Below are positions 20,130 through 43,090 of a stretch of 64,000 bases of DNA, piece after piece (positions within the stretch are counted from its first letter, which is position 1; every line of letters begins with the position of its first letter). Both the position numbers and the translations under genes were made by a program. Location: positions 16,042-80,041 of the forward strand of contig CAZCLW010000003.1 in the NCBI GenBank assembly GCA_964499685.1. Reading direction: 5' to 3'. This DNA is from an uncultured Planctomycetales bacterium (GTDB taxonomy: Bacteria; Omnitrophota; Gorgyraeia; Zapsychrales; GWA2-47-8). The notes under the pieces are model-generated. The model was not told where the DNA came from. It searched no databases and saw nothing but the letters and a program-made list of their open reading frames with translations.

Positions 20130-22896
20130 TGTCACTTTTCGGGAGGCCTTGGACATTGCTTTTAAGATGTTCGAGACGACATCCAAGGGAGAGATATATT
20201 TTCTGAACTTGGACTGTCTGTACAGATCGGTGCGCGACCGGGAATACCGAAGGGCGCTGAACAGGGCCAGCCTTGTCCTCTCCGACGGGGTAGGTCTTAA
20301 GGTCGCCACATGGCTCTTCGGCGGGAAGATGAGGGAAAACTGCAACGGCACCGATTTTTCGCCGTTTTTCATGGAAGAGATCGCTCGTAACGGTTATGGG
20401 GTCTATCTGCTCGGCGGAAAAGACAATGTTGCCTCCGCGGCGGCGGAAAACCTCCGTCAAATGTTCCCGCGTCTTCTCATCAAGGGAACACACGACGGTT
20501 TTTTTGACAACGACGATGAGATCATCGACGATATCAATAGATCCGGCGCGGAAGTCCTTTTTGTCGCCATGGGGGCGCCGTTGCAGGAAAAATGGATCGC
20601 GCGCAACCGTCATCGGCTTAATCCCCGCATTTGCCTGGGCGTGGGAGGTTTATTGGATTATTTATCGGGATATAAAATACGCGCGCCTCATCTTTGGCGG
20701 AGTCTGCATTTGGAATGGCTGTGGCGGGTTTTCCGGGAGCCGCAGCGTCTGTTTAAACGCTATTTTATGGAGGATATGGGCTTTATGATCTATTTACTTT
20801 ATATCATTATAAAAAGGAAATTCGGTGTTCTATGGGGAAAGAAAATGCGCAACCCCGCCATTTTTATTTTTTTCTTTTTGACACTTATTTTCACGCGGAT
20901 AGCTTTCGCGCAGCAGGGTAATTGGAGTTTTGCCGGCTGGTACGGCGGAGGCTGTTACCCCAACATCGTGTTCGACCCGAATGTCAGGAATAGGGTGTAT
21001 CTCACGTCAGATGTGGCCGGTGCCTGGCGGAGTGATAACGGCGGTGAACAATGGCATTTTATCAATCAAGGTCTTAATAGTTTGAATGTGGCCCAATTGG
21101 CGGTCGCCAAGGCCAATTCCAATGTGCTGTATGCCGCGACGGTACGGGGGATTTATTATTCTCTCAATGCCGGCTCGTCCTGGCAGAAGGCGGATGACGC
21201 CGGAGGGGCCCTGGTGTTTCAGCGGCCGCAAAGCCACCGGCCCATAACCATTTCGGCGCGGAATGCCGGTAAGGTGTGCGCGGGCACTTCCAAAGGCGAG
21301 GTTTTCTGCTCGCAAAATTACGGAAAAAGTTGGGTGCCGATCCCCGCCTATCTCGGCAAACCGACCCCGATAACATCCCTGTCCTTTGTTTCCGGGGATA
21401 ACGGTTTGCTCGTCGGCAATACCACAGGTCTGCTTAAATACAGTTTTAATACCAAAACCTGGTATCCGTATTTTTCATTCAATCATCCTGTCACGGATTT
21501 TACCATCTCCCAAAAAAAGCCTGGGATGCTGGTCGTGGCCGGTGAAAAATACCTTTTGATCACTTTAGATAACGGAAAGACTTGGCAGAGATCGGCGGAT
21601 ATCCCCGAGGGGAAGAGCTACCGCGTCATCCTGGACGATTCTAAAACAAGTCCCGTTATTATTGTGGCTTGGCTGCAGGATTGGAACGGCGGCCTTGTCA
21701 TTTCCAGCGACGGAGGGGTTTCCTGGAAGAAGTTTGACGGAAAATTTTTCCCCGATACCGTCGGAAACCCGACGCGAAGTTGGGCGGCTTTAAAGACCCG
21801 TCCGACAGCGGTCCGGATAGACCCTTTCGATCCCGAGCGTTTTTTCCTTACCGACTGGTGGGGCGTGTGGCGCACGGACAACCGGGGTTATTTCTGGGTC
21901 GAAAAGATCAAGGGTGCGCCCAACAGCGTGGGTTCGGATATTTTTATGTCGGCGCAAGGGGATCTTTATGTGGCCACCATGGATAACGGGCTTTTAAGAA
22001 GCAGCGACGGAGGCAAGACCTATCAGATGCTTTTCCCGAAGAAGGGATACAGCACCGAGATCAACGGTCATTTGTGGCAGGTCTTGGTCGTGGGGAATAA
22101 TCGCATCGTCGCGACTTCTTCTCCATGGGGAGCGAATATCAATCAAGTCATTATCAGCGATGACGGCGGCCAGAATTTTCGCATAGCCCGGGCCGGTTTG
22201 CCGGCACAGAGGCCCAAAGGCAATACCATGTGGGGACAAGGATATCCACGCGGACTGGCGGTCGATCCGGCCAATGCCAATGTCCTCTACTTGGGAATGG
22301 ATGGCGATGATCTGGGCGGTATTTTCCGGTCACAGGACGCCGGTTCTTCTTGGGCCCGTCTGCCCGGACAGCCCAGTTCCAAAAAGATATATAACGGTCT
22401 GCTTGTCGATAAAGATTCTTCTGACACTTTATTCTGGGCAGCTTGCGGACCCGGCGGAGGAATCTACAAATCCGTAGACCGCGGACAGACTTGGAAAAGA
22501 ATTTTTTCAAGGACCTTTTGTATTTTGGACCTTGAGATGGGGTCCGATGGGGCCTTGTATGCGGCGGGGTCTGCTCCGCGGCCGGTGCTTTATGTTTCCA
22601 GGAATAAAGGGTTGAATTGGACGGAGCTCGGTCAGTTCACCGCGCCGGGGGCCTCGGCGGCGGAGGCGATCGCGACCGCCTTCAATAATCCGCAGCTGAT
22701 CGCGGTCAGCACGGTCAGCTGGAGCCAGGTGGGCTCCCAGAAAATATTCTTAAGCCGTGATGCTGGTAAAACCTGGACGGATATCTCGACGGATCTTCCG
22801 GCGGGAGCCGGCGCTGCGGCCATGACCTTTGACCGCGACGGACGTTTTTTGTATATCACCCGTTATGCGGGGTCTGTGTATAAGTACAGTTTATGA
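20101..22896 (+). CDS. fusion: WecB/TagA/CpsF (GT26) glycosyltransferase + signal-anchor TM + large BNR/Asp-box beta-propeller domain (GH74/sortilin-like)
   Basis: The N-terminal 250 aa match GT26 end-to-end, including the C-terminal LEWLWRVFREPQRLFKRYF. Then a hydrophobic segment AIFIFFFLTLIFTRIAFA. Then at least 11 Asp-box repeats (SDNGGEQW, NAGSSWQK, DNGKTWQR, SDGGVSWKK, SDGGKTYQ, DDGGQNF, DAGSSWAR, DRGQTWKR, RDAGKTWTD ...). No in-frame stop between domains (checked codon by codon, 20761-20940). Confidence 0.65.
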   Translation: MRILGINYHNVTFREALDIAFKMFETTSKGEIYFLNLDCLYRSVRDREYRRALNRASLVLSDGVGLKVATWLFGGKMRENCNGTDFSPFFMEEIARNGYGVYLLGGKDNVASAAAENLRQMFPRLLIKGTHDGFFDNDDEIIDDINRSGAEVLFVAMGAPLQEKWIARNRHRLNPRICLGVGGLLDYLSGYKIRAPHLWRSLHLEWLWRVFREPQRLFKRYFMEDMGFMIYLLYIIIKRKFGVLWGKKMRNPAIFIFFFLTLIFTRIAFAQQGNWSFAGWYGGGCYPNIVFDPNVRNRVYLTSDVAGAWRSDNGGEQWHFINQGLNSLNVAQLAVAKANSNVLYAATVRGIYYSLNAGSSWQKADDAGGALVFQRPQSHRPITISARNAGKVCAGTSKGEVFCSQNYGKSWVPIPAYLGKPTPITSLSFVSGDNGLLVGNTTGLLKYSFNTKTWYPYFSFNHPVTDFTISQKKPGMLVVAGEKYLLITLDNGKTWQRSADIPEGKSYRVILDDSKTSPVIIVAWLQDWNGGLVISSDGGVSWKKFDGKFFPDTVGNPTRSWAALKTRPTAVRIDPFDPERFFLTDWWGVWRTDNRGYFWVEKIKGAPNSVGSDIFMSAQGDLYVATMDNGLLRSSDGGKTYQMLFPKKGYSTEINGHLWQVLVVGNNRIVATSSPWGANINQVIISDDGGQNFRIARAGLPAQRPKGNTMWGQGYPRGLAVDPANANVLYLGMDGDDLGGIFRSQDAGSSWARLPGQPSSKKIYNGLLVDKDSSDTLFWAACGPGGGIYKSVDRGQTWKRIFSRTFCILDLEMGSDGALYAAGSAPRPVLYVSRNKGLNWTELGQFTAPGASAAEAIATAFNNPQLIAVSTVSWSQVGSQKIFLSRDAGKTWTDISTDLPAGAGAAAMTFDRDGRFLYITRYAGSVYKYSL

Positions 22897-37175: not shown

Positions 37176-37213
37176 AGAAAACCCTGCACTTAAGGTGCGG
37201 GGTTTTCTTGTTT
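37176..37213. terminator. intrinsic terminator after nqrF (gaaaaCCCTGCAC-ttaag-GTGCGGGGttttc + T-rich), potentially bidirectional
   Basis: 8-bp GC stem with one G·U, extended by A:U pairs, U-tract on both strands. Begins 7 nt after the nqrF stop. Confidence 0.65.
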
Positions 37214-37378
37214 AGGAGAGTTGGCGTCGCATTCCGCGGCCTTTTGAGGGTCGTTCTTGCACAGGCACTCCGGGCCCAAGGAACATCCGCGCTTGAGGAC
37301 TTTTTTGGTGAGGACAAAGCCGATGCCCATCAAGAGAAAGCATCCGGCCAAAATAAGAATGGCGAAGAGTGTATTCAT
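37190..37378 (-). CDS. candidate small Cys-rich membrane protein, NqrM/FeoB-associated-like (unannotated micro-ORF; uncertain)
   Basis: 62-aa ORF from the ATG at 37378. TM helix NTLFAILILAGCFLLMGIGFVL followed by KRGCSLGPECLCKNDPQKAAEC (4 Cys). No obvious SD. Convergent with nqrF. Confidence 0.3.
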   Translation of the reverse strand: MNTLFAILILAGCFLLMGIGFVLTKKVLKRGCSLGPECLCKNDPQKAAECDANSPKQENPAP

Positions 37379-37407
37379 AATTTTAGTATAGGCCAATTTA
37401 AATCAAA

Positions 37408-38673
37408 ATGCAACAGAGCACAAAGTCCACTACATCCTCCCGCCTTTCGAACAATAAGAAACTGCAGATCAGCCAGTCGGAAGAGCTCAAGATCCTGCGC
37501 AAGGTCGTGGATATCACAAGCTCCGCCCTGGAATTGAGCCTTGTCCTGAAGGAAGTGGTCAAGATCGTGACCGAAATGACCTCGGCCGACTCCGTCTTTA
37601 TCTATCTTTTCGACGAGAACCGCGAGCATCTGGTCCTGATGGCCTCCAAAACCCCGCATAAAGAACAGTTGGGGAAAGTGCATTTGAACGTCGGGGAAGG
37701 TATCACGGGATGGGTCGCCAAGGAAAGTAAACCCGTTGCCATCGCGCAGAACGCGTACAGGGACTCGCGCTTTAAGAATTTTGATGTCCTGCCCGAAGAT
37801 AAATACGAAGCGTTTTTGTCGGTTCCCATTATCTACCAGAACCGTGCCATCGGTGTCATCAACGTCCAGCACCGCCGGCCGCATGCCTATGCGGCGAACA
37901 CCGTCAGCCTGATCGTGACGATCGCCAAACAGGTCGGCGGCGTCATCGAACACGCCCAGCTCTTCGAACAGATGAAGAAAAAGGCGACCCAGTTCGACAG
38001 TCTGGTCAAGGTCAGCCAGTCCATCACCTCCGAAGATTATTTGGACGAGATCTTGAGTCTCATCGTCGTGGTCACAGCTGAGATGCTCAATTCCAAGATA
38101 TGCTCCATCATGCTTTTGGACGAAAAAGGCGAAGAACTGGCCATCAAGGCGACCCAAAGCCTGAGCGTGGATTACCGTAAGAAGCCAAATGTCAAAGTGG
38201 ATGCGAGCTTAAGCGGAGAGGTCGTCAAAACCAAGAAGCCCATGGCGGTCTATGATGTCCGGGAGGAGAAGCGCTATTTTTACCGGGATTTGGCCATCAA
38301 GGAGGGATTGACCTCCATGCTGGCCGTTCCCATGATTGTGAAAGAAAAGGCCGTGGGCATCATCAATGTGTACACGCAAAAACCGCACCGCTTTGCGGAA
38401 GATGAGATCAATGTCCTGCAAATGGTAGCCAACCAGGCGGCGGTCGCGGTCCAGAACACGAAATTGATGGAAGAGGCCCTGAAGGCCAAAGAATCTCTGG
38501 AGACACGCAAGGTGGTCGAGCGGGCCAAAGGGATCCTGATGCGGATGAATAATCTGAGCGAAGAAGCGGCCTACAAGGTCATCCACCGAAAAAGCATGGA
38601 TTCCTCCCGTTCCATGAAAGAAATTGCTGAATCCATCATTCTTTTGGATGAACTGCAGAAGGACAAGAAATAA
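37408..38673 (+). CDS. GAF-GAF-ANTAR RNA-binding antitermination regulator
   Basis: Two GAF-like modules (…VFIYLFDE…LVLMASK…GEGITGWVAKESKPVAI… and …ICSIMLLDEKGEELAIKA…GEVVKTKKPMAVYDV…). C-terminal ANTAR-like helix bundle LETRKVVERAKGILMRMNNLSEEAAYKVIHRKSMDSSRSMKEIAESII. Confidence 0.7.
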   Translation: MQQSTKSTTSSRLSNNKKLQISQSEELKILRKVVDITSSALELSLVLKEVVKIVTEMTSADSVFIYLFDENREHLVLMASKTPHKEQLGKVHLNVGEGITGWVAKESKPVAIAQNAYRDSRFKNFDVLPEDKYEAFLSVPIIYQNRAIGVINVQHRRPHAYAANTVSLIVTIAKQVGGVIEHAQLFEQMKKKATQFDSLVKVSQSITSEDYLDEILSLIVVVTAEMLNSKICSIMLLDEKGEELAIKATQSLSVDYRKKPNVKVDASLSGEVVKTKKPMAVYDVREEKRYFYRDLAIKEGLTSMLAVPMIVKEKAVGIINVYTQKPHRFAEDEINVLQMVANQAAVAVQNTKLMEEALKAKESLETRKVVERAKGILMRMNNLSEEAAYKVIHRKSMDSSRSMKEIAESIILLDELQKDKK

Positions 38674-38719: not shown

Positions 38720-38748
38720 TTGACAAAAAACGCGGTGTGGCGTATATT
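38720..38748 (+). promoter_or_regulatory. sigma70-like promoter TTGACA-N17-TATATT upstream of the amt1 leader
   Basis: Consensus -35 and near-consensus -10 with 17-nt spacer read directly. Confidence 0.5.
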
Positions 38749-38786
38749 TTGGTTGCTTAAGTCAATGAAGATTTAAGGCCTTATCC

Positions 38787-38800
38787 GGACAGAGAAGTCC
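38787..38800 (+). promoter_or_regulatory. hexaloop hairpin GGAC-AGAGAA-GTCC (A1/G4 loop; candidate ANTAR recognition element) overlapping the 5' arm of terminator 1
   Basis: Seen directly. The 3' arm GTCC shares nucleotides with the CCCGC arm of the downstream terminator. Confidence 0.35.
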
Positions 38801-38830
38801 CGCCGTCAACGACGCGGGATTTTTTATTTT
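38799..38830 (+). terminator. leader terminator 1 (CCCGCcGTC-aac-GACGCGGG + ATTTTTTATTTT)
   Basis: 8-bp GC-rich stem with 1-nt bulge followed by a U-tract. Confidence 0.55.
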
Positions 38831-38857
38831 GTACGGAAATATTTTTGGGCAAAGACG

Positions 38858-38907
38858 TCCGATGATTTTCTGAAAAGGCAGTCAGAAAGGTCATCGGATT
38901 TTTTTAT
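38858..38907 (+). terminator. leader terminator 2 (TCCGATGATTTTCTGA-aaaggcag-TCAGAAAGGTCATCGGA + TTTTTTTAT)
   Basis: About 15-bp stem (one bulge/G·U) followed by 7 U. Confidence 0.65.
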
Positions 38908-38923
38908 GGGATTCGGGCGCTGA

Positions 38924-38970
38924 GGCCCTCTTGAACAGAGCAAGGACGTTCAAGGGGGCCTTTTGTGTTT
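38924..38970 (+). terminator. leader terminator 3 (GGCCCTCTTGAAC-agagcaaggac-GTTCAAGGGGGCC + TTTTGTGTTT)
   Basis: 13-bp stem with a single G·U followed by a U-rich tract. About 110 nt upstream of amt1. Confidence 0.55.
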
Positions 38971-39082
38971 AAGTTTGCCTGAGGGAGACAGGGGAGGTGA
39001 ATATGAACTGACAACACATCTAGCGATTAACCACGAAGTGGAAGTGGTCTTACTTATATCAAAAAATGGAGGATACAAAACA

Positions 39083-40423
39083 ATGTTTAAACAATTTGGC
39101 AAAAAATTCTTAAGTATATTCATGGGCGTGTTGTTCGCGACCCTGGCGTTCAGCCTGCCGGCCATGGCGGCCGATGTTACGGCGGCCGATGCCATGTTCA
39201 CGGTGAACAATACGTGGATGATGGTTTCAACGTTCCTGGTCTTTATCATGCATTTGGGTTTCGCGACCCTGGAATCGGGGCTGACCCGGGCCAAAAACAC
39301 CACGAACATTCTTTTTAAGAATGTCTCGATCGTGGCGATCGGCCTTTTGACCTATGCGGTCTTGGGCTTCAACCTCATGTATCCGGGTGATTCCTGGATC
39401 TTCGGTAAATGGTTTGGGTTCGGCGGCTTCGGAGTTTCTTCACCGGAAGGTGCCGCAGGGCTCATTGAATATGCCGACGGCAAATACACCTACTGGACGG
39501 ATTTTCTTTTCCAGGCGATGTTCGCGGCCACCGCGGCCACGATCGTCTCAGGGGCCGTTGCCGAAAGGATCAAGTTACACAGCTTTTTATTTTTCTCCAT
39601 TTTCTTTGTCGGGCTGGTCTATCCCTTTATCGGAAGCTGGAAATGGGGTGCCGGTTGGCTCAATGACAAAGGGTTCTATGATTTCGCCGGTTCGACCCTC
39701 GTCCACTCTGTGGGCGGTTGGGGCGCCTTGGCCGGAGCGCTTATCCTGGGCCCGCGTCTGGGCAAATACAATAAAGGCAGTGTCAAAGCCATTCCCGGGC
39801 ACAATATGCCTTTGGCAACCATCGGTGTTTTTCTCCTATGGTTGGGATGGTTTGGTTTCAACGGCGGGTCGGTGCTTTCAGCTGATCCCGGCGCTGTTTC
39901 CTACGTTTTGGTGACCACCTCTCTGGCAGCGGCCGCCGGTATCGTCGGCGCCATGCTGGCCTCGGAGCTTTATTTAAAGAAACCGGACCTATCTATGGTC
40001 TTAAACGGTTCTCTGGCCGGTTTGGTAGGCATCACGGCCGGAGCTGACACTGTTTCGGTCCTTTCCGCGATTATCATAGGCCTGATCGCCGGTATTTTGG
40101 TCGTTTTGGCGGTCGTTTTCATTGATTCTAAACTGAAGATCGACGATCCCGTGGGGGCCATCTCGGTCCACTTGGTCTGCGGCATCTGGGGCACATTGGC
40201 CGTCGGGATCTTCAGCACCAAGCCAGAGCACACGTTCTGGATCCAGTTGTTGGGCGTCATTGCGTGCGGACTTATGGCGTTTCTTTCGGCTTTTCTCATC
40301 TTCAGCGTGGTCAAGGCCCTGATGGGCATGCGCGTTCCGGAAGAAGAAGAGCTGAAGGGACTGGATATTGGGGAACACGGTATGGAGGCATACGAAGGTT
40401 TCCAGATCTTTACGACCCAATAA
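39083..40423 (+). CDS. amt: ammonium transporter (Amt/MEP/Rh family) with cleavable signal peptide
   Basis: RBS GGAGGA. Signal peptide …SLPAMAADV. Conserved Amt motifs (…D.AGG.VVH..GG..AL.GA…; FGFNGGS). Confidence 0.9.
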   Translation: MFKQFGKKFLSIFMGVLFATLAFSLPAMAADVTAADAMFTVNNTWMMVSTFLVFIMHLGFATLESGLTRAKNTTNILFKNVSIVAIGLLTYAVLGFNLMYPGDSWIFGKWFGFGGFGVSSPEGAAGLIEYADGKYTYWTDFLFQAMFAATAATIVSGAVAERIKLHSFLFFSIFFVGLVYPFIGSWKWGAGWLNDKGFYDFAGSTLVHSVGGWGALAGALILGPRLGKYNKGSVKAIPGHNMPLATIGVFLLWLGWFGFNGGSVLSADPGAVSYVLVTTSLAAAAGIVGAMLASELYLKKPDLSMVLNGSLAGLVGITAGADTVSVLSAIIIGLIAGILVVLAVVFIDSKLKIDDPVGAISVHLVCGIWGTLAVGIFSTKPEHTFWIQLLGVIACGLMAFLSAFLIFSVVKALMGMRVPEEEELKGLDIGEHGMEAYEGFQIFTTQ

Positions 40424-40453: not shown

Positions 40454-40795
40454 ATGAAATATATTGTTGCCATGATCCAGCCTCACAAGCTGCCTGATGT
40501 CAAAAAGGCTTTGTTCGAGGCCGATGTCCATAAGATGACCGTGACCAACGTCGTGGGTTGCGGGCAACAGCGCGGTTTTAGTGAGACCTACCGCGGTGTT
40601 GTACATGAAGTGAACCTGTTAAAGAAGGTCCGTATTGAAATTGGCGTCAATGACGAGTTCGTGAAGCCGACCATCCGTGCCATTATCAAAGGTGCCAAAA
40701 CGGGAAATATCGGCGATGGCAAGATCTTTGTTTTTGATCTTCCCCAATGTATCCGTATCCGCACCGAAGAAGAGGGCGGCAAGGCCATTGGTTAA
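40454..40795 (+). CDS. glnK: PII nitrogen regulatory protein, divergent T-loop
   Basis: 112-aa PII fold ([13 protein letters not shown]…DGKIFVFDL…IRIRT). T-loop reads [14 protein letters not shown] instead of the canonical G(R/H)GRQKG…YRG. Confidence 0.85.
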
Positions 40796-40814
40796 GTAAG
40801 CTGTGGTTGTCCAC

Positions 40815-40901
40815 GAGGGAGAAGGTGGTTAAGGCTAAAAGCAGCCTCTCTTCTCCCTCCTTAAAATATCAGCGCGATGATTTTTAAGGAAAGAGGCTGC
40901 T
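40815..40901 (+). promoter_or_regulatory. two mutually exclusive 10-bp helices (GAGGGAGAAG/CTTCTCCCTC and AGCAGCCTCT/AGAGGCTGCT) in the glnK1-amt2 spacer
   Basis: Perfect complementarities read directly. Each helix sequesters one arm of the other, like an attenuator switch. Confidence 0.4.
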
Positions 40902-41060
40902 CAATTTATAAGAAAGGCAGCGCTTACTATGCACTCCCTCTGGGGGCTGTATGATTCTTTGGGAAAAGCTACATGGGTGTTCATCATCTCGATGTTCGTC
41001 TTCGAGGTTTGCCTGAGCATTTATGGGCTGATGTCCTTTTAGTCGTCGCTTTAAAAAACC

Positions 41061-41089
41061 TTGACATCAAAATGGGATGATTGTATACT
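41061..41089 (+). promoter_or_regulatory. sigma70-like promoter TTGACA-N17-TATACT upstream of amt2
   Basis: Read directly. Lies 84 nt upstream of a strong leader terminator. Confidence 0.5.
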
Positions 41090-41172
41090 CACCTCAATTC
41101 TAAAGGCACTGGCGTCTTTAGAAAAAAATCGGTCGCACGCATGCATAGCCGGCCGATCAAGGGCATGGAAGT

Positions 41173-41222
41173 CCTCAAGAGACCAAAACAAGAGAAGGTC
41201 TCGTTTGAGGGCTTTTTTTTTG
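41173..41222 (+). terminator. leader terminator before amt2 (CCTCAAGAGACC-aaaacaagagaa-GGTCTCgtTTGAGG + GC + T9)
   Basis: 12-bp stem with 2-nt bulge followed by nine consecutive T. Located 80 nt upstream of the amt2 start. Confidence 0.65.
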
Positions 41223-41302
41223 GACAACGGCGTCCGTAACATGCACAGGTAAAGATCTCGTTGCAGAAGCAGTAATAACACAATGTGAAGGGAGAACACA
41301 TT

Positions 41303-42538
41303 ATGGACATGATCAATGCAGGTGACACAGCGTGGGTTTTGATTTCCTCAGCCCTTGTCATGCTTATGACGCCGGGCCTGGCCTTCTTTTACGGAGGCAT
41401 GGTAAGACGTAAAAATATTTTAGGCGTTTTAATGCAATGTTTTATCGTTCTTTGTGCGTTAAGTCTTCATTGGGTCTTGATCGGCTATAGCCTTTCCTTC
41501 AGCTCAGGGAATCCTTTTATCGGCGGATTGCAATGGGCCGGCCTCAACGGTGTCGGTCAAGAGCCTAATCCCGATTATGCCGCGACGATCCCGCATCAGG
41601 CCTTTATGATCTTTCAGGCTATGTTTGCCGTCATTACCCCGGCTTTGATCATCGGCGCCTTTGCCGAGCGCATGAAATTTTCAGCTTTTCTGTTATTCAC
41701 CCTTTTATGGGCCACATTCGTGTACGCGCCCGTGTGCCACATGGTCTGGGGTCTCGGCGGATTTATCCGCAGCATGGGAGCCTTGGATTTTGCCGGAGGC
41801 ACGGTCGTTCATATCAATGCCGGTATCGCGGCTTTGCTGACCGCTATGATGATCGGCAAAAGGACCGGCTATGCGAATAAACCGACGCCTTTGCATAATA
41901 TCCCGTTCACGGTATTGGGTGCGGCGCTGCTCTGGTTCGGCTGGTTTGGTTTCAATGCCGGAAGCGCTTTGGGTGCCGGCGGTCTGGCCGCCGCGGCTTT
42001 TGTCACGACCAACACGGCCGCCGCCGCTGCAGGTCTTACATGGGCGATTTTAGAATGGAAAATGACCGGTAAACCGACGATGTTCGGAGCGGTGACCGGC
42101 GCTGTTGCGGGTCTGGTTGCCATCACACCGGCAGCCGGTTTTGTTACGCCCGTATCGGCCATTATCATCGGTGTTGTCGTCAGCCTGCTATGTTTCTTTA
42201 TGGTCGGTATTGTCAAACCGAAGTTGGGCTACGATGATTCTTTGGATGCCTTCGGCGTCCATGGTATCGGCGGGATCTGGGGGGCTCTGGCCACGGGGTT
42301 GTTCGCGACGACCTCGGTCAATTCGGCCGGTGCCGACGGGCTTTTCTATGGGAATCCCGGATTATTGTTTATTCAGTTGAAAGCCGTTCTGGTGACCATT
42401 ATTTACTGCCTTATTGTGACAGCCGTCATTTACAAAATTGTCGATATGATCATCGGCATGAGGGTCTCACAAGAAGATGAGGCGATCGGTCTGGATTTGA
42501 CCCAGCACCATGAACGCGCCTACACCATGCTGGAATAA
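41303..42538 (+). CDS. amt: ammonium transporter (Amt family), no signal peptide
   Basis: RBS AAGGGAGAA 7 nt upstream of the ATG at 41303 (the ATG at 41285 lies in the RBS). Conserved Amt motifs (FGFNAGSAL, VVHINAGIAAL). Confidence 0.9.
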   Translation: MDMINAGDTAWVLISSALVMLMTPGLAFFYGGMVRRKNILGVLMQCFIVLCALSLHWVLIGYSLSFSSGNPFIGGLQWAGLNGVGQEPNPDYAATIPHQAFMIFQAMFAVITPALIIGAFAERMKFSAFLLFTLLWATFVYAPVCHMVWGLGGFIRSMGALDFAGGTVVHINAGIAALLTAMMIGKRTGYANKPTPLHNIPFTVLGAALLWFGWFGFNAGSALGAGGLAAAAFVTTNTAAAAAGLTWAILEWKMTGKPTMFGAVTGAVAGLVAITPAAGFVTPVSAIIIGVVVSLLCFFMVGIVKPKLGYDDSLDAFGVHGIGGIWGALATGLFATTSVNSAGADGLFYGNPGLLFIQLKAVLVTIIYCLIVTAVIYKIVDMIIGMRVSQEDEAIGLDLTQHHERAYTMLE

Positions 42539-42917: not shown

Positions 42918-42952
42918 AAGCGTTCGGAAATGGGGGTTTTCCGGATAAATTT

Positions 42953-42990
42953 CCTTCCCCGGGCGTGCCCGGGGAAGGGGATTTATTTGG
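42953..42990 (+). terminator. intrinsic terminator after amt2-glnK2 (CCTTCCCCGGG-cgtg-CCCGGGGAAGG + T-rich)
   Basis: Perfect 11-bp GC stem, tetraloop, followed by GATTTATTTGG. Confidence 0.65.
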
Positions 42991-42991
42991 G

Positions 42992-43020
42992 TTGACGCTT
43001 AGAGGAAAGATTGCTAGAAT
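42992..43020 (+). promoter_or_regulatory. sigma70-like promoter TTGACG-N17-TAGAAT for glnN, embedded in the inverted repeat TTAGAGG…CCTCTAA
   Basis: Hexamers read directly. 7-bp IR arms at 42999-43005 and 43023-43029 bracket the spacer and -10. Confidence 0.45.
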
Positions 43021-43090
43021 TGCCTCTAAATCTAACCCGCTGAAAATAAATTAGTTTAAACCCTAATAAATAATTGAGGAGAGAAGGAAT

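What the first reader, a model, noticed from the sequence alone, without database searches (positions are those of the whole stretch)
40796..41302. 507-bp glnK1-amt2 spacer with switch-like alternative helices, an internal promoter and a T9 terminator
Seen: two perfect 10-bp complementarities (40815-40824 with 40850-40859; 40840-40849 with 40892-40901) whose arms interleave, so only one helix can form at a time. Next comes TTGACA-N17-TATACT (41061-41089). Then the terminator CCTCAAGAGACC…GGTCTCgtTTGAGG-GC-T9 (41173-41222) lies 80 nt before amt2. The second amt-PII pair therefore has its own conditional transcription unit, not simple read-through. The alternative-helix element could be a processing/attenuation site or an sRNA.
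Basis: seen in the sequence. Interest (0 to 1): 0.55.

Follow-up and report, generated by a model that had tools for sequence, protein, structure and literature searches.

The report
ANTAR antiterminator leader plus small ORF
The "spacer" between two ammonium-transporter gene pairs of an uncultivated Omnitrophota bacterium holds a small membrane-protein gene, a conserved promoter and a protein-controlled stop signal of a known type (ANTAR antitermination), so it is a tidy new example of a known nitrogen switch rather than a new kind of RNA element.

Summary
What they mean differs in part.

**3' half.** This is a conserved unit made of:
- a sigma-70-type promoter (41061-41089);
- two hairpins with six-base loops (P1 at 41098-41123, loop ACUGGC; P2 at 41160-41175, loop AUGGAA);
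- an intrinsic terminator (41171-41221) whose 5' arm overlaps the 3' arm of P2.

That is the published recognition motif of ANTAR antiterminator proteins. A GAF-GAF-ANTAR gene lies 2.4 kb upstream, in synteny conserved across Omnitrophota. A covariance model built without this site finds it at E = 1e-5. All 79 hits in 1.3 Mb of related loci are on the coding strand, mostly upstream of amt genes.

**Middle.** 40929-41042 is a 37-aa hydrophobic ORF. It has syntenic homologues and is already a called gene.

**5' part.** Helix B aligns significantly with an ANTAR-controlled terminator in one relative (L006). In this window, and in the matching hairpin of the closest relative (L161), there is no U-tract. 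Helix A occurs only in this genome. A functional switch here is not shown.

**Verdict.** New member of a known kind; moderate interest.

The parts
37408..38673 (+). GAF-GAF-ANTAR regulator gene, the presumed trans-acting antiterminator
   Evidence: Pfam: two GAF domains plus ANTAR (E = 1.9e-19). The GAF domains are most similar to the N-terminal GAF of PtsP/EI-Ntr and the GAF of NifA. 69-81% identical orthologues sit in 80 Omnitrophota loci next to amt/glnK/glnN.
38720..38962 (+). amt1 leader: promoter TTGACA-N17-TATATT followed by three tandem hexaloop-hairpin/terminator modules. It is the sister element to the amt2 leader.
40815..40859 (+). Helix A: GAGGGAGAAG (40815-24) paired with CUUCUCCCUC (40850-59). 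Specific to this window.
   Evidence: Pairing probability is about 1 in the nested ensemble. No counterpart in L161.
40840..40901 (+). Long hairpin made of helix B (40840-49 with 40892-901) and apical hairpin C (40859-40889). Read as an ex-terminator without a U-tract.
   Evidence: -26.9 kcal/mol. Local alignment to the L161 post-glnK1 hairpin gives z = 5.96, and to the third ANTAR-controlled terminator of L006 z = 4.09, both 0 of 300 shuffles. Two compensatory pair changes against L161.
40929..41042 (+). 37-aa hydrophobic small ORF (MHSLWGLYDSLGKATWVFIISMFVFEVCLSIYGLMSF)
   Evidence: L015 homologue: 43% identity, same length, syntenic; P0154, present among NCBI-sourced predicted proteins, on a 114,868-bp contig; P0174 and P0175; L168 has the sORF directly upstream of amt2.
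41061..41089 (+). Sigma-70-type promoter TTGACA-N17-TATACT with an upstream A-tract. Predicted start near 41096.
   Evidence: 11 of 12 matches; hexamers and A-tract are invariant in 8 leaders while the spacer varies.
41098..41123 (+). P1 hairpin UUCUAAAGGC[ACUGGC]GUCUUUAGAA, with A at loop position 1 and G at position 4
   Evidence: -10.3 kcal/mol. Covariation in relatives.
41128..41157 (+). Hairpin inside the P1-P2 linker. If formed, it leaves about 6 single-stranded nt between P1 and P2.
   Evidence: -10.8 kcal/mol. L006 has an analogous linker hairpin.
41160..41175 (+). P2 hairpin AGGGC[AUGGAA]GUCCU. Its 3' arm is the base of the terminator stem.
   Evidence: -5.0 kcal/mol.
41171..41221 (+). 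Intrinsic terminator: stem 41171-41212, U9 at 41213-41221
   Evidence: -18.7 kcal/mol. With the P2 arm removed, only an upper stem of -8.6 kcal/mol remains, separated from the U run.
41221..41236 (+). Third, post-terminator hexaloop hairpin UGGAC[AACGGC]GUCCG. Function unknown.
   Evidence: (weak model hit 41178-41235). Present in several related amt2 leaders.
41288..41305 (+). amt2 ribosome-binding site GAAGGGAG and ATG at 41303

Best explanation
The 507 bp hold four things in a row.

(1) A stable stem-loop region directly after glnK1. Its core, helix B plus hairpin C, looks like a descendant of an ANTAR-controlled terminator that once preceded the small ORF. It now lacks a U-tract. It most likely acts only as a 3'-end or inter-cistronic hairpin that lets transcription run on. 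Helix A, which only this genome has, pairs with the strand next to the old terminator arm and is the favoured fold.

(2) A 37-aa single-helix membrane-protein gene. Here it has no promoter of its own, so it is probably read as the third gene of the amt1-glnK1 transcript.

(3) A strong, conserved sigma-70-type promoter.

(4) A leader RNA that starts at P1 and by default folds into a terminator, so transcription stops 81 nt before amt2. When the neighbouring GAF-GAF-ANTAR protein is active, presumably under nitrogen limitation sensed through its PtsP/NifA-like GAF domains, it binds the two hexaloops P1 and P2. Holding P2 closed removes the five base pairs at the foot of the terminator, and RNA polymerase reads into amt2-glnK2. 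Read-through transcripts from upstream meet the same gate.

Shown here: the sequence anatomy, conservation, covariation, strand bias, synteny with the ANTAR gene, and the energetics. Inferred: protein binding, the ligand, the transcription start site, the direction of regulation, and the role of the 5' hairpins and of the small protein.
For: - **Motif in the window.** The combination 'hexaloop ANNGNN hairpin whose 3' arm overlaps a terminator' occurs 3 times, all on the + strand and all in the amt1 and amt2 leaders, and 0 times on the - strand.
- **Motif in relatives.** In 80 related loci the count is 109 on + against 7 on -.
- **Independent model.** Covariance model R1 was built from 17 dual hairpins that exclude this site. 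All pairs form and 8 of 11 pairs show double changes (0-1 of 500 shuffles reach the observed measures). It scores 41101-41174 at 27.9 bits, E = 1.2e-5.
- **Strand and position of hits.** Across 1.3 Mb searched on both strands, all 79 hits at E <= 0.01 are on the + strand. 62 of them lie within 1.2 kb upstream of an amt gene.
- **Loop consensus.** A at position 1 in 79% (L1) and 92% (L2); G at position 4 in 99% and 100%. This matches the published ANTAR determinants (PMC3369931).
- **Default state is off.** The leader folds at -47.9 kcal/mol with the terminator and -42.7 with P2 enforced.
- **Regulator.** The ANTAR gene is adjacent and syntenic.
- **Promoter.** It shows a phylogenetic footprint.
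- **Small ORF.** Homologues at the same position.
- **Origin of the 5' hairpin.**
Against: - No expression, end-mapping or binding data exist for this uncultivated organism.
- The P1-P2 linker is 36 nt. For EutV, linkers of 3 or 14 nt impaired induction. The proximity argument rests on a predicted linker hairpin.
- No GAF-ANTAR protein has been characterised, so the signal and its sign are unknown.
- The relic reading of the 5' element rests on two pairwise alignments (z = 4-6) and two compensatory pairs. Retention of a strong hairpin in both the window and L161 could equally mean a live function.
- The window-type small ORF shows only weak evidence of selection (pN/pS 0.45 with saturated pS).
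Confidence: 0.75

Rival explanations
1. The helix A / helix B element is a working RNA switch, a repurposed ex-terminator. It would gate read-through or translation of the small ORF, or direct processing between glnK1 and the sORF.
For: The two folds are nearly equal in energy, -55.1 against -52.3 kcal/mol. Two perfect 10-bp stems never arose in 3000 shuffles. GAGGGAG can alternatively pair with CUCCCUC at 40935-41 inside sORF codons 3-5. A strong hairpin is retained, with compensatory changes, in L161.
Against: Helix A is absent from L161. No homologue was found in 168 loci. There is no U-tract, no Rfam match and no identifiable ligand or protein site. Helix A dominates the ensemble, so no trigger for switching is evident.
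Confidence: 0.2
2. The terminator is simply the constitutive end of the amt1-glnK1(-sORF) operon. The promoter is an unrelated constitutive internal promoter, and the hexaloop hairpins are incidental.
For: No other terminator lies between glnK1 and 41221, so read-through transcripts must end there or continue.
Against: The terminator lies downstream of the promoter, so an unregulated terminator would silence amt2. The promoter-P1-P2-terminator order is conserved in relatives that have no upstream amt1-glnK1 (L003, L006, L015, L056, L073). The strand-specific enrichment and covariation of the hairpins also argue against chance.
Confidence: 0.05
3. The leader is a metabolite-binding riboswitch, for example for glutamine, acting without a protein.
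For: Nitrogen-gene context. A terminator is preceded by alternative structure.
Against: No Rfam family matches even at E <= 10. The conserved parts are two simple hairpins with a variable linker of 5-47 nt, with no ligand-pocket-like conserved core. An ANTAR gene is always adjacent.
Confidence: 0.03
4. The prematurely terminated leader of about 125 nt (41096-41221), possibly together with the orphan third hairpin, acts in trans as a decoy that titrates the ANTAR protein. EutX/Rli55 would be the model; that comparison is from my own knowledge and was not retrieved here.
For: The terminated leader carries a complete P1/P2 site. Orphan P2-like hairpins just after terminators recur in relatives.
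Against: This is a by-product of every attenuator. Nothing here indicates a separate function, and there is no independent promoter or terminator for such an RNA.
Confidence: 0.1

Closest known systems
ANTAR-target dual-hairpin antiterminators: EutV/eut leaders of Enterococcus faecalis, NasR/nasF, AmiR/ami, and the predicted nitrogen regulons of Desulfotomaculum and Pelobacter (Ramesh et al. 2012, PMC3369931)
   Same: Two stem-loops with hexanucleotide loops carrying A at position 1 and G at position 4. The 3' arm of P2 overlaps the 5' arm of an intrinsic terminator. They lie upstream of ammonium-transporter, PII, GS and GOGAT genes. Several modules occur per genome.
   Different: The regulator has tandem GAF sensor domains. 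Ramesh et al. 2012 noted this architecture as uncharacterised, unlike the REC, NIT or AmiC-partnered types. The linker is 36 nt with an inserted hairpin, against 5-12 nt in eut. An extra hexaloop hairpin follows the terminator. The phylum is Omnitrophota. No Rfam model matches.
GnfK/GnfR antitermination of nitrogen-fixation genes in Geobacter sulfurreducens (Ueki & Lovley 2010, PMC2995071)
   Same: An ANTAR protein is proposed to relieve premature terminators in the leaders of glnK-amtB and nif operons. The conserved site CAGGCAANGGCGCC resembles the hexaloop hairpins here, for example GGAC-AACGGC-GUCC.
   Different: GnfR is a response regulator phosphorylated by GnfK, and its promoters are activated by GnfM. 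Here the regulator is a one-component GAF-GAF-ANTAR and the promoters are near-consensus sigma-70 type.
sP36, the small protein that mediates GlnK1-dependent inhibition of AmtB1 in Methanosarcina mazei (PMC10714827)
   Same: A small protein encoded in a nitrogen-regulated context that acts on an ammonium transporter. It sets a precedent for the sORF next to amt2.
   Different: sP36 is an archaeal small protein and no sequence relationship to it was tested here. From my own knowledge it is soluble and about 61 aa; that was not read from the paper. The ORF here is a 37-aa hydrophobic helix of unknown function, with no Pfam or NCBIfam family.

Membership tests
ANTAR-target dual-hairpin antiterminator RNA | Two neighbouring stem-loops, each with a six-nucleotide terminal loop | tested here: met
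   P1 at 41098-41123 and P2 at 41160-41175.
ANTAR-target dual-hairpin antiterminator RNA | A at loop position 1 and G at loop position 4 in both loops | tested here: met
   L1 is ACUGGC and L2 is AUGGAA. Family consensus: A1 79% and 92%, G4 99% and 100%. The criterion comes from PMC3369931.
ANTAR-target dual-hairpin antiterminator RNA | The 3' arm of P2 overlaps the 5' arm of a correctly oriented intrinsic terminator | tested here: met
   GUCCU at 41171-41175 is shared. Terminator -18.7 against P2 -5.0 kcal/mol.
ANTAR-target dual-hairpin antiterminator RNA | Short P1-P2 linker (5-12 nt in eut; 3 or 14 nt impaired EutV) | tested here: inconclusive
   The linker is 36 nt. A predicted hairpin at 41128-41157 leaves about 6 nt single-stranded. 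Linkers in the Omnitrophota family range from 5 to 47 nt, median 11.
ANTAR-target dual-hairpin antiterminator RNA | An ANTAR-domain protein is encoded in the genome | tested here: met
   GAF-GAF-ANTAR at 37408-38673, syntenic in 80 or more loci.
ANTAR-target dual-hairpin antiterminator RNA | Match to a covariance model of the family built from other sites | tested here: met
   R1 excludes this site and scores it at 27.9 bits, E = 1.2e-5 with filters off. No Rfam family matched at either threshold.
ANTAR-target dual-hairpin antiterminator RNA | Protein binding and signal-dependent antitermination | not testable with these tools
   Needs EMSA, in vitro transcription or reporters.
Rho-independent terminator | G+C-rich stem-loop immediately followed by a U-tract | tested here: met
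   41171-41212 followed by U9.
Rho-independent terminator (applied to helix B / hairpin C, 40840-40901) | U-tract after the stem | tested here: not met
   The stem is followed by CAAUUUAUAAG. The hairpin it aligns with in L006 has U6.
Sigma-70-type promoter | -35 and -10 hexamers at 17-bp spacing, conserved among orthologous leaders | tested here: met
   11 of 12 matches. Hexamers are invariant and the spacer varies in 8 leaders. The start site is not testable here.
Conserved RNA switch or riboswitch (5' element) | Both alternative helices conserved, with covariation, in relatives | tested here: not met
   Helix B has two compensatory pairs against L161. Helix A has no counterpart. No other homologues were found. 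No Rfam hit.
Small membrane-protein gene (window-type sORF family) | ORF of conserved length and sequence at a syntenic position in other genomes | tested here: met
   L015 (43% identity, 37 aa), L001, L006, P0174, and P0175/L168, all upstream of amt2-type genes.
Small membrane-protein gene (window-type sORF family) | Purifying selection on the protein sequence | tested here: inconclusive
   Window against L015: pN/pS 0.45 with pS saturated. The analogous FWA-type sORFs give 0.09-0.12, but hhalign finds no homology between the two types.

The most novel reading that the evidence does not exclude
The 37-aa hydrophobic protein, and the analogous 'GLFWAxKxHxV' small proteins that sit in the same place in other Omnitrophota, would be a dedicated small subunit or regulator of the signal-peptide-less Amt2-type ammonium transporter, expressed under ANTAR control. 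In this genome the helix A / helix B ex-terminator would then have been repurposed to gate its expression from the upstream amt1-glnK1 transcript.
Probability: 0.2. Interest if true: 0.6.

Novelty: new member of a known kind. Interest (0 to 1): 0.35.

Why it matters
The finding gives uncultivated Omnitrophota a concrete, testable model of nitrogen control. A single GAF-GAF-ANTAR protein would gate amt, glnK and, in many relatives, GS genes through one to three tandem terminators per leader.

It also extends the 2012 prediction that ANTAR regulons manage nitrogen metabolism. The extension covers another phylum and a sensor architecture that has never been characterised.

Finally, it flags two unnamed families of small membrane proteins that are specifically linked to one class of ammonium transporter.

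Tried and rejected
- **Rfam.** A scan of the whole window and a permissive scan of 40700-41400 gave nothing meaningful.
- **Homologues of the 5' element.**
  - blastn of the spacer against 160 loci matched only the promoter plus P1 in L003 and L015.
  - Regions downstream of glnK1 in about 25 relatives are not alignable to it.
  - Four further amt1-glnK1 loci (L164-L167) showed no significant similarity.
  - The shared CTCCCTCC motif occurs in only three loci, so I did not pursue it as a motif.
- **20-codon ORF (GTG at 40825).** It follows the SD-like GAGGGAGAAG. It has no family, and the corresponding L161 sequence shows no start codon after its SD-like GGAGAAGG. Dropped.
- **Uniting the two sORF types.** hhalign probability was 0.1%, so they are treated as analogous only.
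- **Exact look-ups.** Searches for glnK1 and the sORF in the contig index found nothing. The sORF is nevertheless in the protein collection as P0154.
- **Wrong frames.** My first synteny map used wrong reading frames for amt1 and amt2. It was redone.
- **NqrM idea.** I recalled NqrM for the small minus-strand ORF at 37190-37396. Pfam did not confirm it.

Full report
**Context**

The window comes from a Candidatus Omnitrophota genome. The GAF-GAF-ANTAR protein at 37408-38673 is 69-81% identical to proteins in 80 loci; nearly all are Omnitrophota/Omnitrophica MAGs, or MAGs labelled 'uncultured Planctomycetales'. The amt1 product is 100% identical to P0001, a protein held by NCBI on a 114,868-bp contig.

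The gene order is nqrA-F, GAF-GAF-ANTAR, amt1 (39083-40423), glnK1 (40454-40795), the 507-bp region, amt2 (41303-42538), glnK2, type III glutamine synthetase, a GATase, NAD synthase and gltBD. The order ANTAR, amt, glnK, glnN, GATase, nadE, gltB is conserved across the phylum. Most genomes carry either an amt1-type or an amt2-type pair. The window and L161 carry both types.

**Checking the observation**

- Both perfect 10-bp complementarities are exactly where stated. Of 3000 dinucleotide-preserving shuffles of 40796-40930, 42 gave one such stem and none gave two.
- The region folds at -52.4 kcal/mol, z = -5.0.
- TTGACA-N17-TATACT at 41061-41089 is an 11-of-12 match. It ties with the amt1 promoter as the best in an 11-kb scan.
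- The terminator is real at -18.7 kcal/mol. Its U9 run spans 41213-41221 and ends 81 nt before the amt2 ATG.

The two helices share no nucleotides. However, hairpin C (40859-40889) lies between them, and only AA links its 3' arm to the 3' arm of helix B. By my own geometric and energetic estimate, helix A and the long B+C hairpin then behave as alternatives. Nested folds give -55.1 (A) against -52.3 kcal/mol (B), and A dominates the ensemble.

**The 3' half is an ANTAR antiterminator leader**

Between the promoter and the terminator lie two hairpins with six-base loops:
- P1: UUCUAAAGGC[ACUGGC]GUCUUUAGAA, 41098-41123.
- P2: AGGGC[AUGGAA]GUCCU, 41160-41175.

Both loops have A at position 1 and G at position 4. 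The 3' arm of P2 (GUCCU, 41171-75) forms the foot of the terminator stem. This is the architecture that Ramesh et al. showed to be the recognition element of ANTAR proteins. They also found it bioinformatically upstream of PII, ammonium-transporter, GS and GOGAT genes (PMC3369931).

Enrichment and strand bias support the assignment:
- A mechanical scan for 'ANNGNN-hexaloop hairpin overlapping a terminator' finds 3 sites on the + strand of the 64-kb window, all in the amt1 and amt2 leaders, and 0 on the - strand.
- In the 80 related loci the same scan gives 109 on + against 7 on -.
- P2-like hairpins as a class number 338 on + against 55 on -.

A covariance model adds an independent test. I built it from 17 dual hairpins and deliberately left out the window's amt2 leader.
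- In the seed, all cells pair and 8 of 11 pairs show double changes. 0-1 of 500 shuffles reach the observed measures. The seed was chosen for pairing, so the 100% figure is by construction. The covariation is not.
- With filters off, the model scores 41101-41174 at 27.9 bits, E = 1.2e-5, despite a 29-nt insertion.
- Apart from one weak intragenic hit (20517-20557, E = 0.03), every hit better than E = 0.2 lies in the amt1 or amt2 leader.
- Over 83 sources (1.3 Mb, both strands) all 79 hits at E <= 0.01 are on the + strand. 62 of them lie within 1.2 kb upstream of an amt gene.
- The loop consensus is A1 79% and 92%, G4 99% and 100%.
- P1 shows double changes at all seven pairs across the 79 hits. 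That alignment is fitted to the model.

By energy the leader is off by default: -47.9 kcal/mol with the terminator against -42.7 with P2 enforced. Removing the P2 arm leaves only an upper stem of -8.6 kcal/mol, detached from the U run.

The P1-P2 linker is 36 nt, longer than the 5-12 nt of eut leaders. It folds into its own hairpin at 41128-41157 (-10.8 kcal/mol), which leaves about 6 nt single-stranded. L006 has an analogous linker hairpin, and linkers in the family range from 5 to 47 nt.

**The promoter is real by phylogenetic footprint**

In eight homologous amt2 leaders the A-tract, TTGACA and TATA(C/U)T are invariant. The 17-bp spacer and the 8-10 nt before P1 vary freely. The transcript therefore starts essentially at P1.

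The amt1 leader is a sister element. It has a TTGACA-N17-TATATT promoter, P1/P2 at 38756-38800, and three successive P2/terminator modules.

**The regulator**

NCBIfam places the first GAF domain closest to the N-terminal GAF of PtsP/EI-Ntr (residues 27-192, E = 6e-44). It places the second closest to the NifA GAF (residues 195-385, E = 5e-27). Both hits fall far below the whole-protein cut-offs, so they are domain resemblances only. Those GAF domains are known, from my own knowledge rather than from any test here, to respond to glutamine and 2-oxoglutarate. This makes a nitrogen-status signal a reasonable inference. Ramesh et al. noted that no GAF-ANTAR protein had been characterised. The nearest experimentally studied system on glnK-amtB leaders is Geobacter GnfR (PMC2995071).

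**The middle is a gene**

40929-41042 encodes MHSLWGLYDSLGKATWVFIISMFVFEVCLSIYGLMSF. Homologues of the same size sit at the same place upstream of amt2-type genes:
- L015: 43% identity, tblastn E = 7e-5.
- L001.
- L006: weak similarity.
- P0174 and P0175, the only further matches among 1.84 billion representative proteins.
- In L168 the P0175 gene lies between two ANTAR modules and amt2.

The window's ORF is already in the protein collection as P0154, from NCBI and unnamed. No Pfam or NCBIfam family matches.

Many other Omnitrophota have a different hydrophobic sORF (consensus ...AQxALAxGLFWAxKxHxV) in the same position. That type is under strong purifying selection, pN/pS 0.09-0.12. hhalign finds no homology between the two types.

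The positional association is specific. 14 of 34 amt2-type genes have such an ORF within 300 nt upstream, against 0 of 25 amt1-type, 1 of 42 glnN and 3 of 82 ANTAR genes.

In L015, L006, L001 and L168 the sORF has its own promoter and ANTAR modules. In the window no promoter-like site was found between glnK1 and the sORF. It is probably transcribed from the amt1 promoter.

**The 5' element**

No homologue turned up in blastn or local-alignment comparisons against the loci available at each step, 160 of the 168 loci eventually fetched, with two exceptions:
- The post-glnK1 hairpin of L161: z = 5.96, 0 of 300 shuffles.
- The third ANTAR-controlled terminator that precedes the sORF in L006: z = 4.09, 0 of 300 shuffles.

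The arms of helix B covary between the window (GCAGCC/GGCUGC) and L161 (GCGGCC/GGCCGC). In the window and in L161 no U-tract follows the hairpin, whereas the aligned L006 terminator has U6. L161 also lacks the sORF, and its hairpin runs straight into the amt2 promoter.

Helix A has no counterpart in L161. There the pyrimidine tract pairs within the hairpin instead.

Strong but non-homologous hairpins directly after glnK1 occur in several other relatives.

My reading is that helix B plus hairpin C is an ex-terminator, now serving at most as a 3'-end or inter-cistronic hairpin, and that helix A is a lineage-specific addition. A live switch is not excluded. One pointer is that GAGGGAG can also pair with CUCCCUC in sORF codons 3-5. 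Beyond that, nothing comparative supports it.

**Comparison with known systems, and verdict**

Every testable defining feature of an ANTAR-target antiterminator is met except the short linker, which is inconclusive. Binding and regulation cannot be tested here. This is a new member of a known kind, in a new phylum and with an uncharacterised sensor type.

The unexplained extras are the post-terminator hexaloop hairpin (41221-41236, recurrent in relatives), the window-specific helix A, and the function of the small protein.

Interest is moderate to low for the RNA element itself. It would be higher if the small protein proves to be an Amt partner.

Noticed in passing
window 38720-39082: The amt1 leader carries a near-consensus promoter followed by three tandem hexaloop-hairpin/terminator modules: T1 at 38798-38819 with U6, T2 at 38858-38898 with U7, and T3 at 38924-38962. 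That is one more module than the scan first showed.
   Followed up: partly
window 41221-41236; also L003, L006, L015, L016, L034, L056: A third hexaloop hairpin, UGGAC[AACGGC]GUCCG, sits directly after the terminator U run and is not followed by another terminator. Similar orphan hairpins recur in related amt2 leaders. Their function is unknown. They resemble the Geobacter GnfR consensus CAGGCAANGGCGCC.
   Followed up: partly
L007 11484-11582, L017 11503-11625, L018 6681-6803, L023 11788-11913, L033 16065-16184, L047 11810-11929 and others: A second, unrelated family of 30-42 aa hydrophobic ORFs (...GLFWAxKxHxV) lies between the ANTAR terminators and amt2-type genes. It is under strong purifying selection (pN/pS about 0.1). 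A mixed profile of both sORF types matched 53 database proteins, each unnamed or labelled 'hypothetical protein'.
   Followed up: partly
L006 11282-11313, L007 11325-11360, L067 8060-8093, L072 12825-12854, L076 12806-12835: In tandem modules, the apical loop of the upstream terminator is itself often an ANTAR-like hexaloop (AAUGAC, AAUGUU, AUAGUU, AAUGAA). The terminator hairpin could therefore double as P1 for the next module.
   Followed up: no
L166 1057-3276: One relative (GCA_975969145.1) carries ptsP (GAF plus PEP-utilising domains, EI-Ntr) between two amt-glnK pairs. This is the same GAF type that the ANTAR regulator's first GAF domain most resembles.
   Followed up: no
window 42918-43090: glnN has its own promoter (TTGACG-N17-TAGAAT, 42992-43020) and no ANTAR module. 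Many relatives do have modules upstream of glnN, for example L007, L017-L019, L060-L062, L067 and L074. A strong hairpin at 42950-42975 ends the amt2-glnK2 unit.
   Followed up: no
window 40935-40941: A third copy of the pyrimidine motif (CUCCCUC) lies in codons 3-5 of the small ORF. When helix B is enforced, it pairs with GAGGGAG (40815-21).
   Followed up: partly
window 37190-37396 (- strand): A 68-aa ORF with one hydrophobic helix and a Cys-rich tail lies between nqrF and the ANTAR gene. Unannotated minus-strand genes are called at the same place in L161 and L163. Pfam gives no significant family, so my recollection that it might be NqrM-like is unconfirmed.
   Followed up: partly
L161 7734-7984: L161 is the only other locus with both amt-glnK pairs. 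Its spacer is 251 bp and has no small ORF. Its post-glnK1 hairpin runs straight into the amt2 promoter, which is consistent with a deletion of the sORF.
   Followed up: partly
window 20517-20557: A weak hit of the dual-hairpin model (15 bits, E = 0.03) lies inside a 942-aa ORF. It is probably chance.
   Followed up: no
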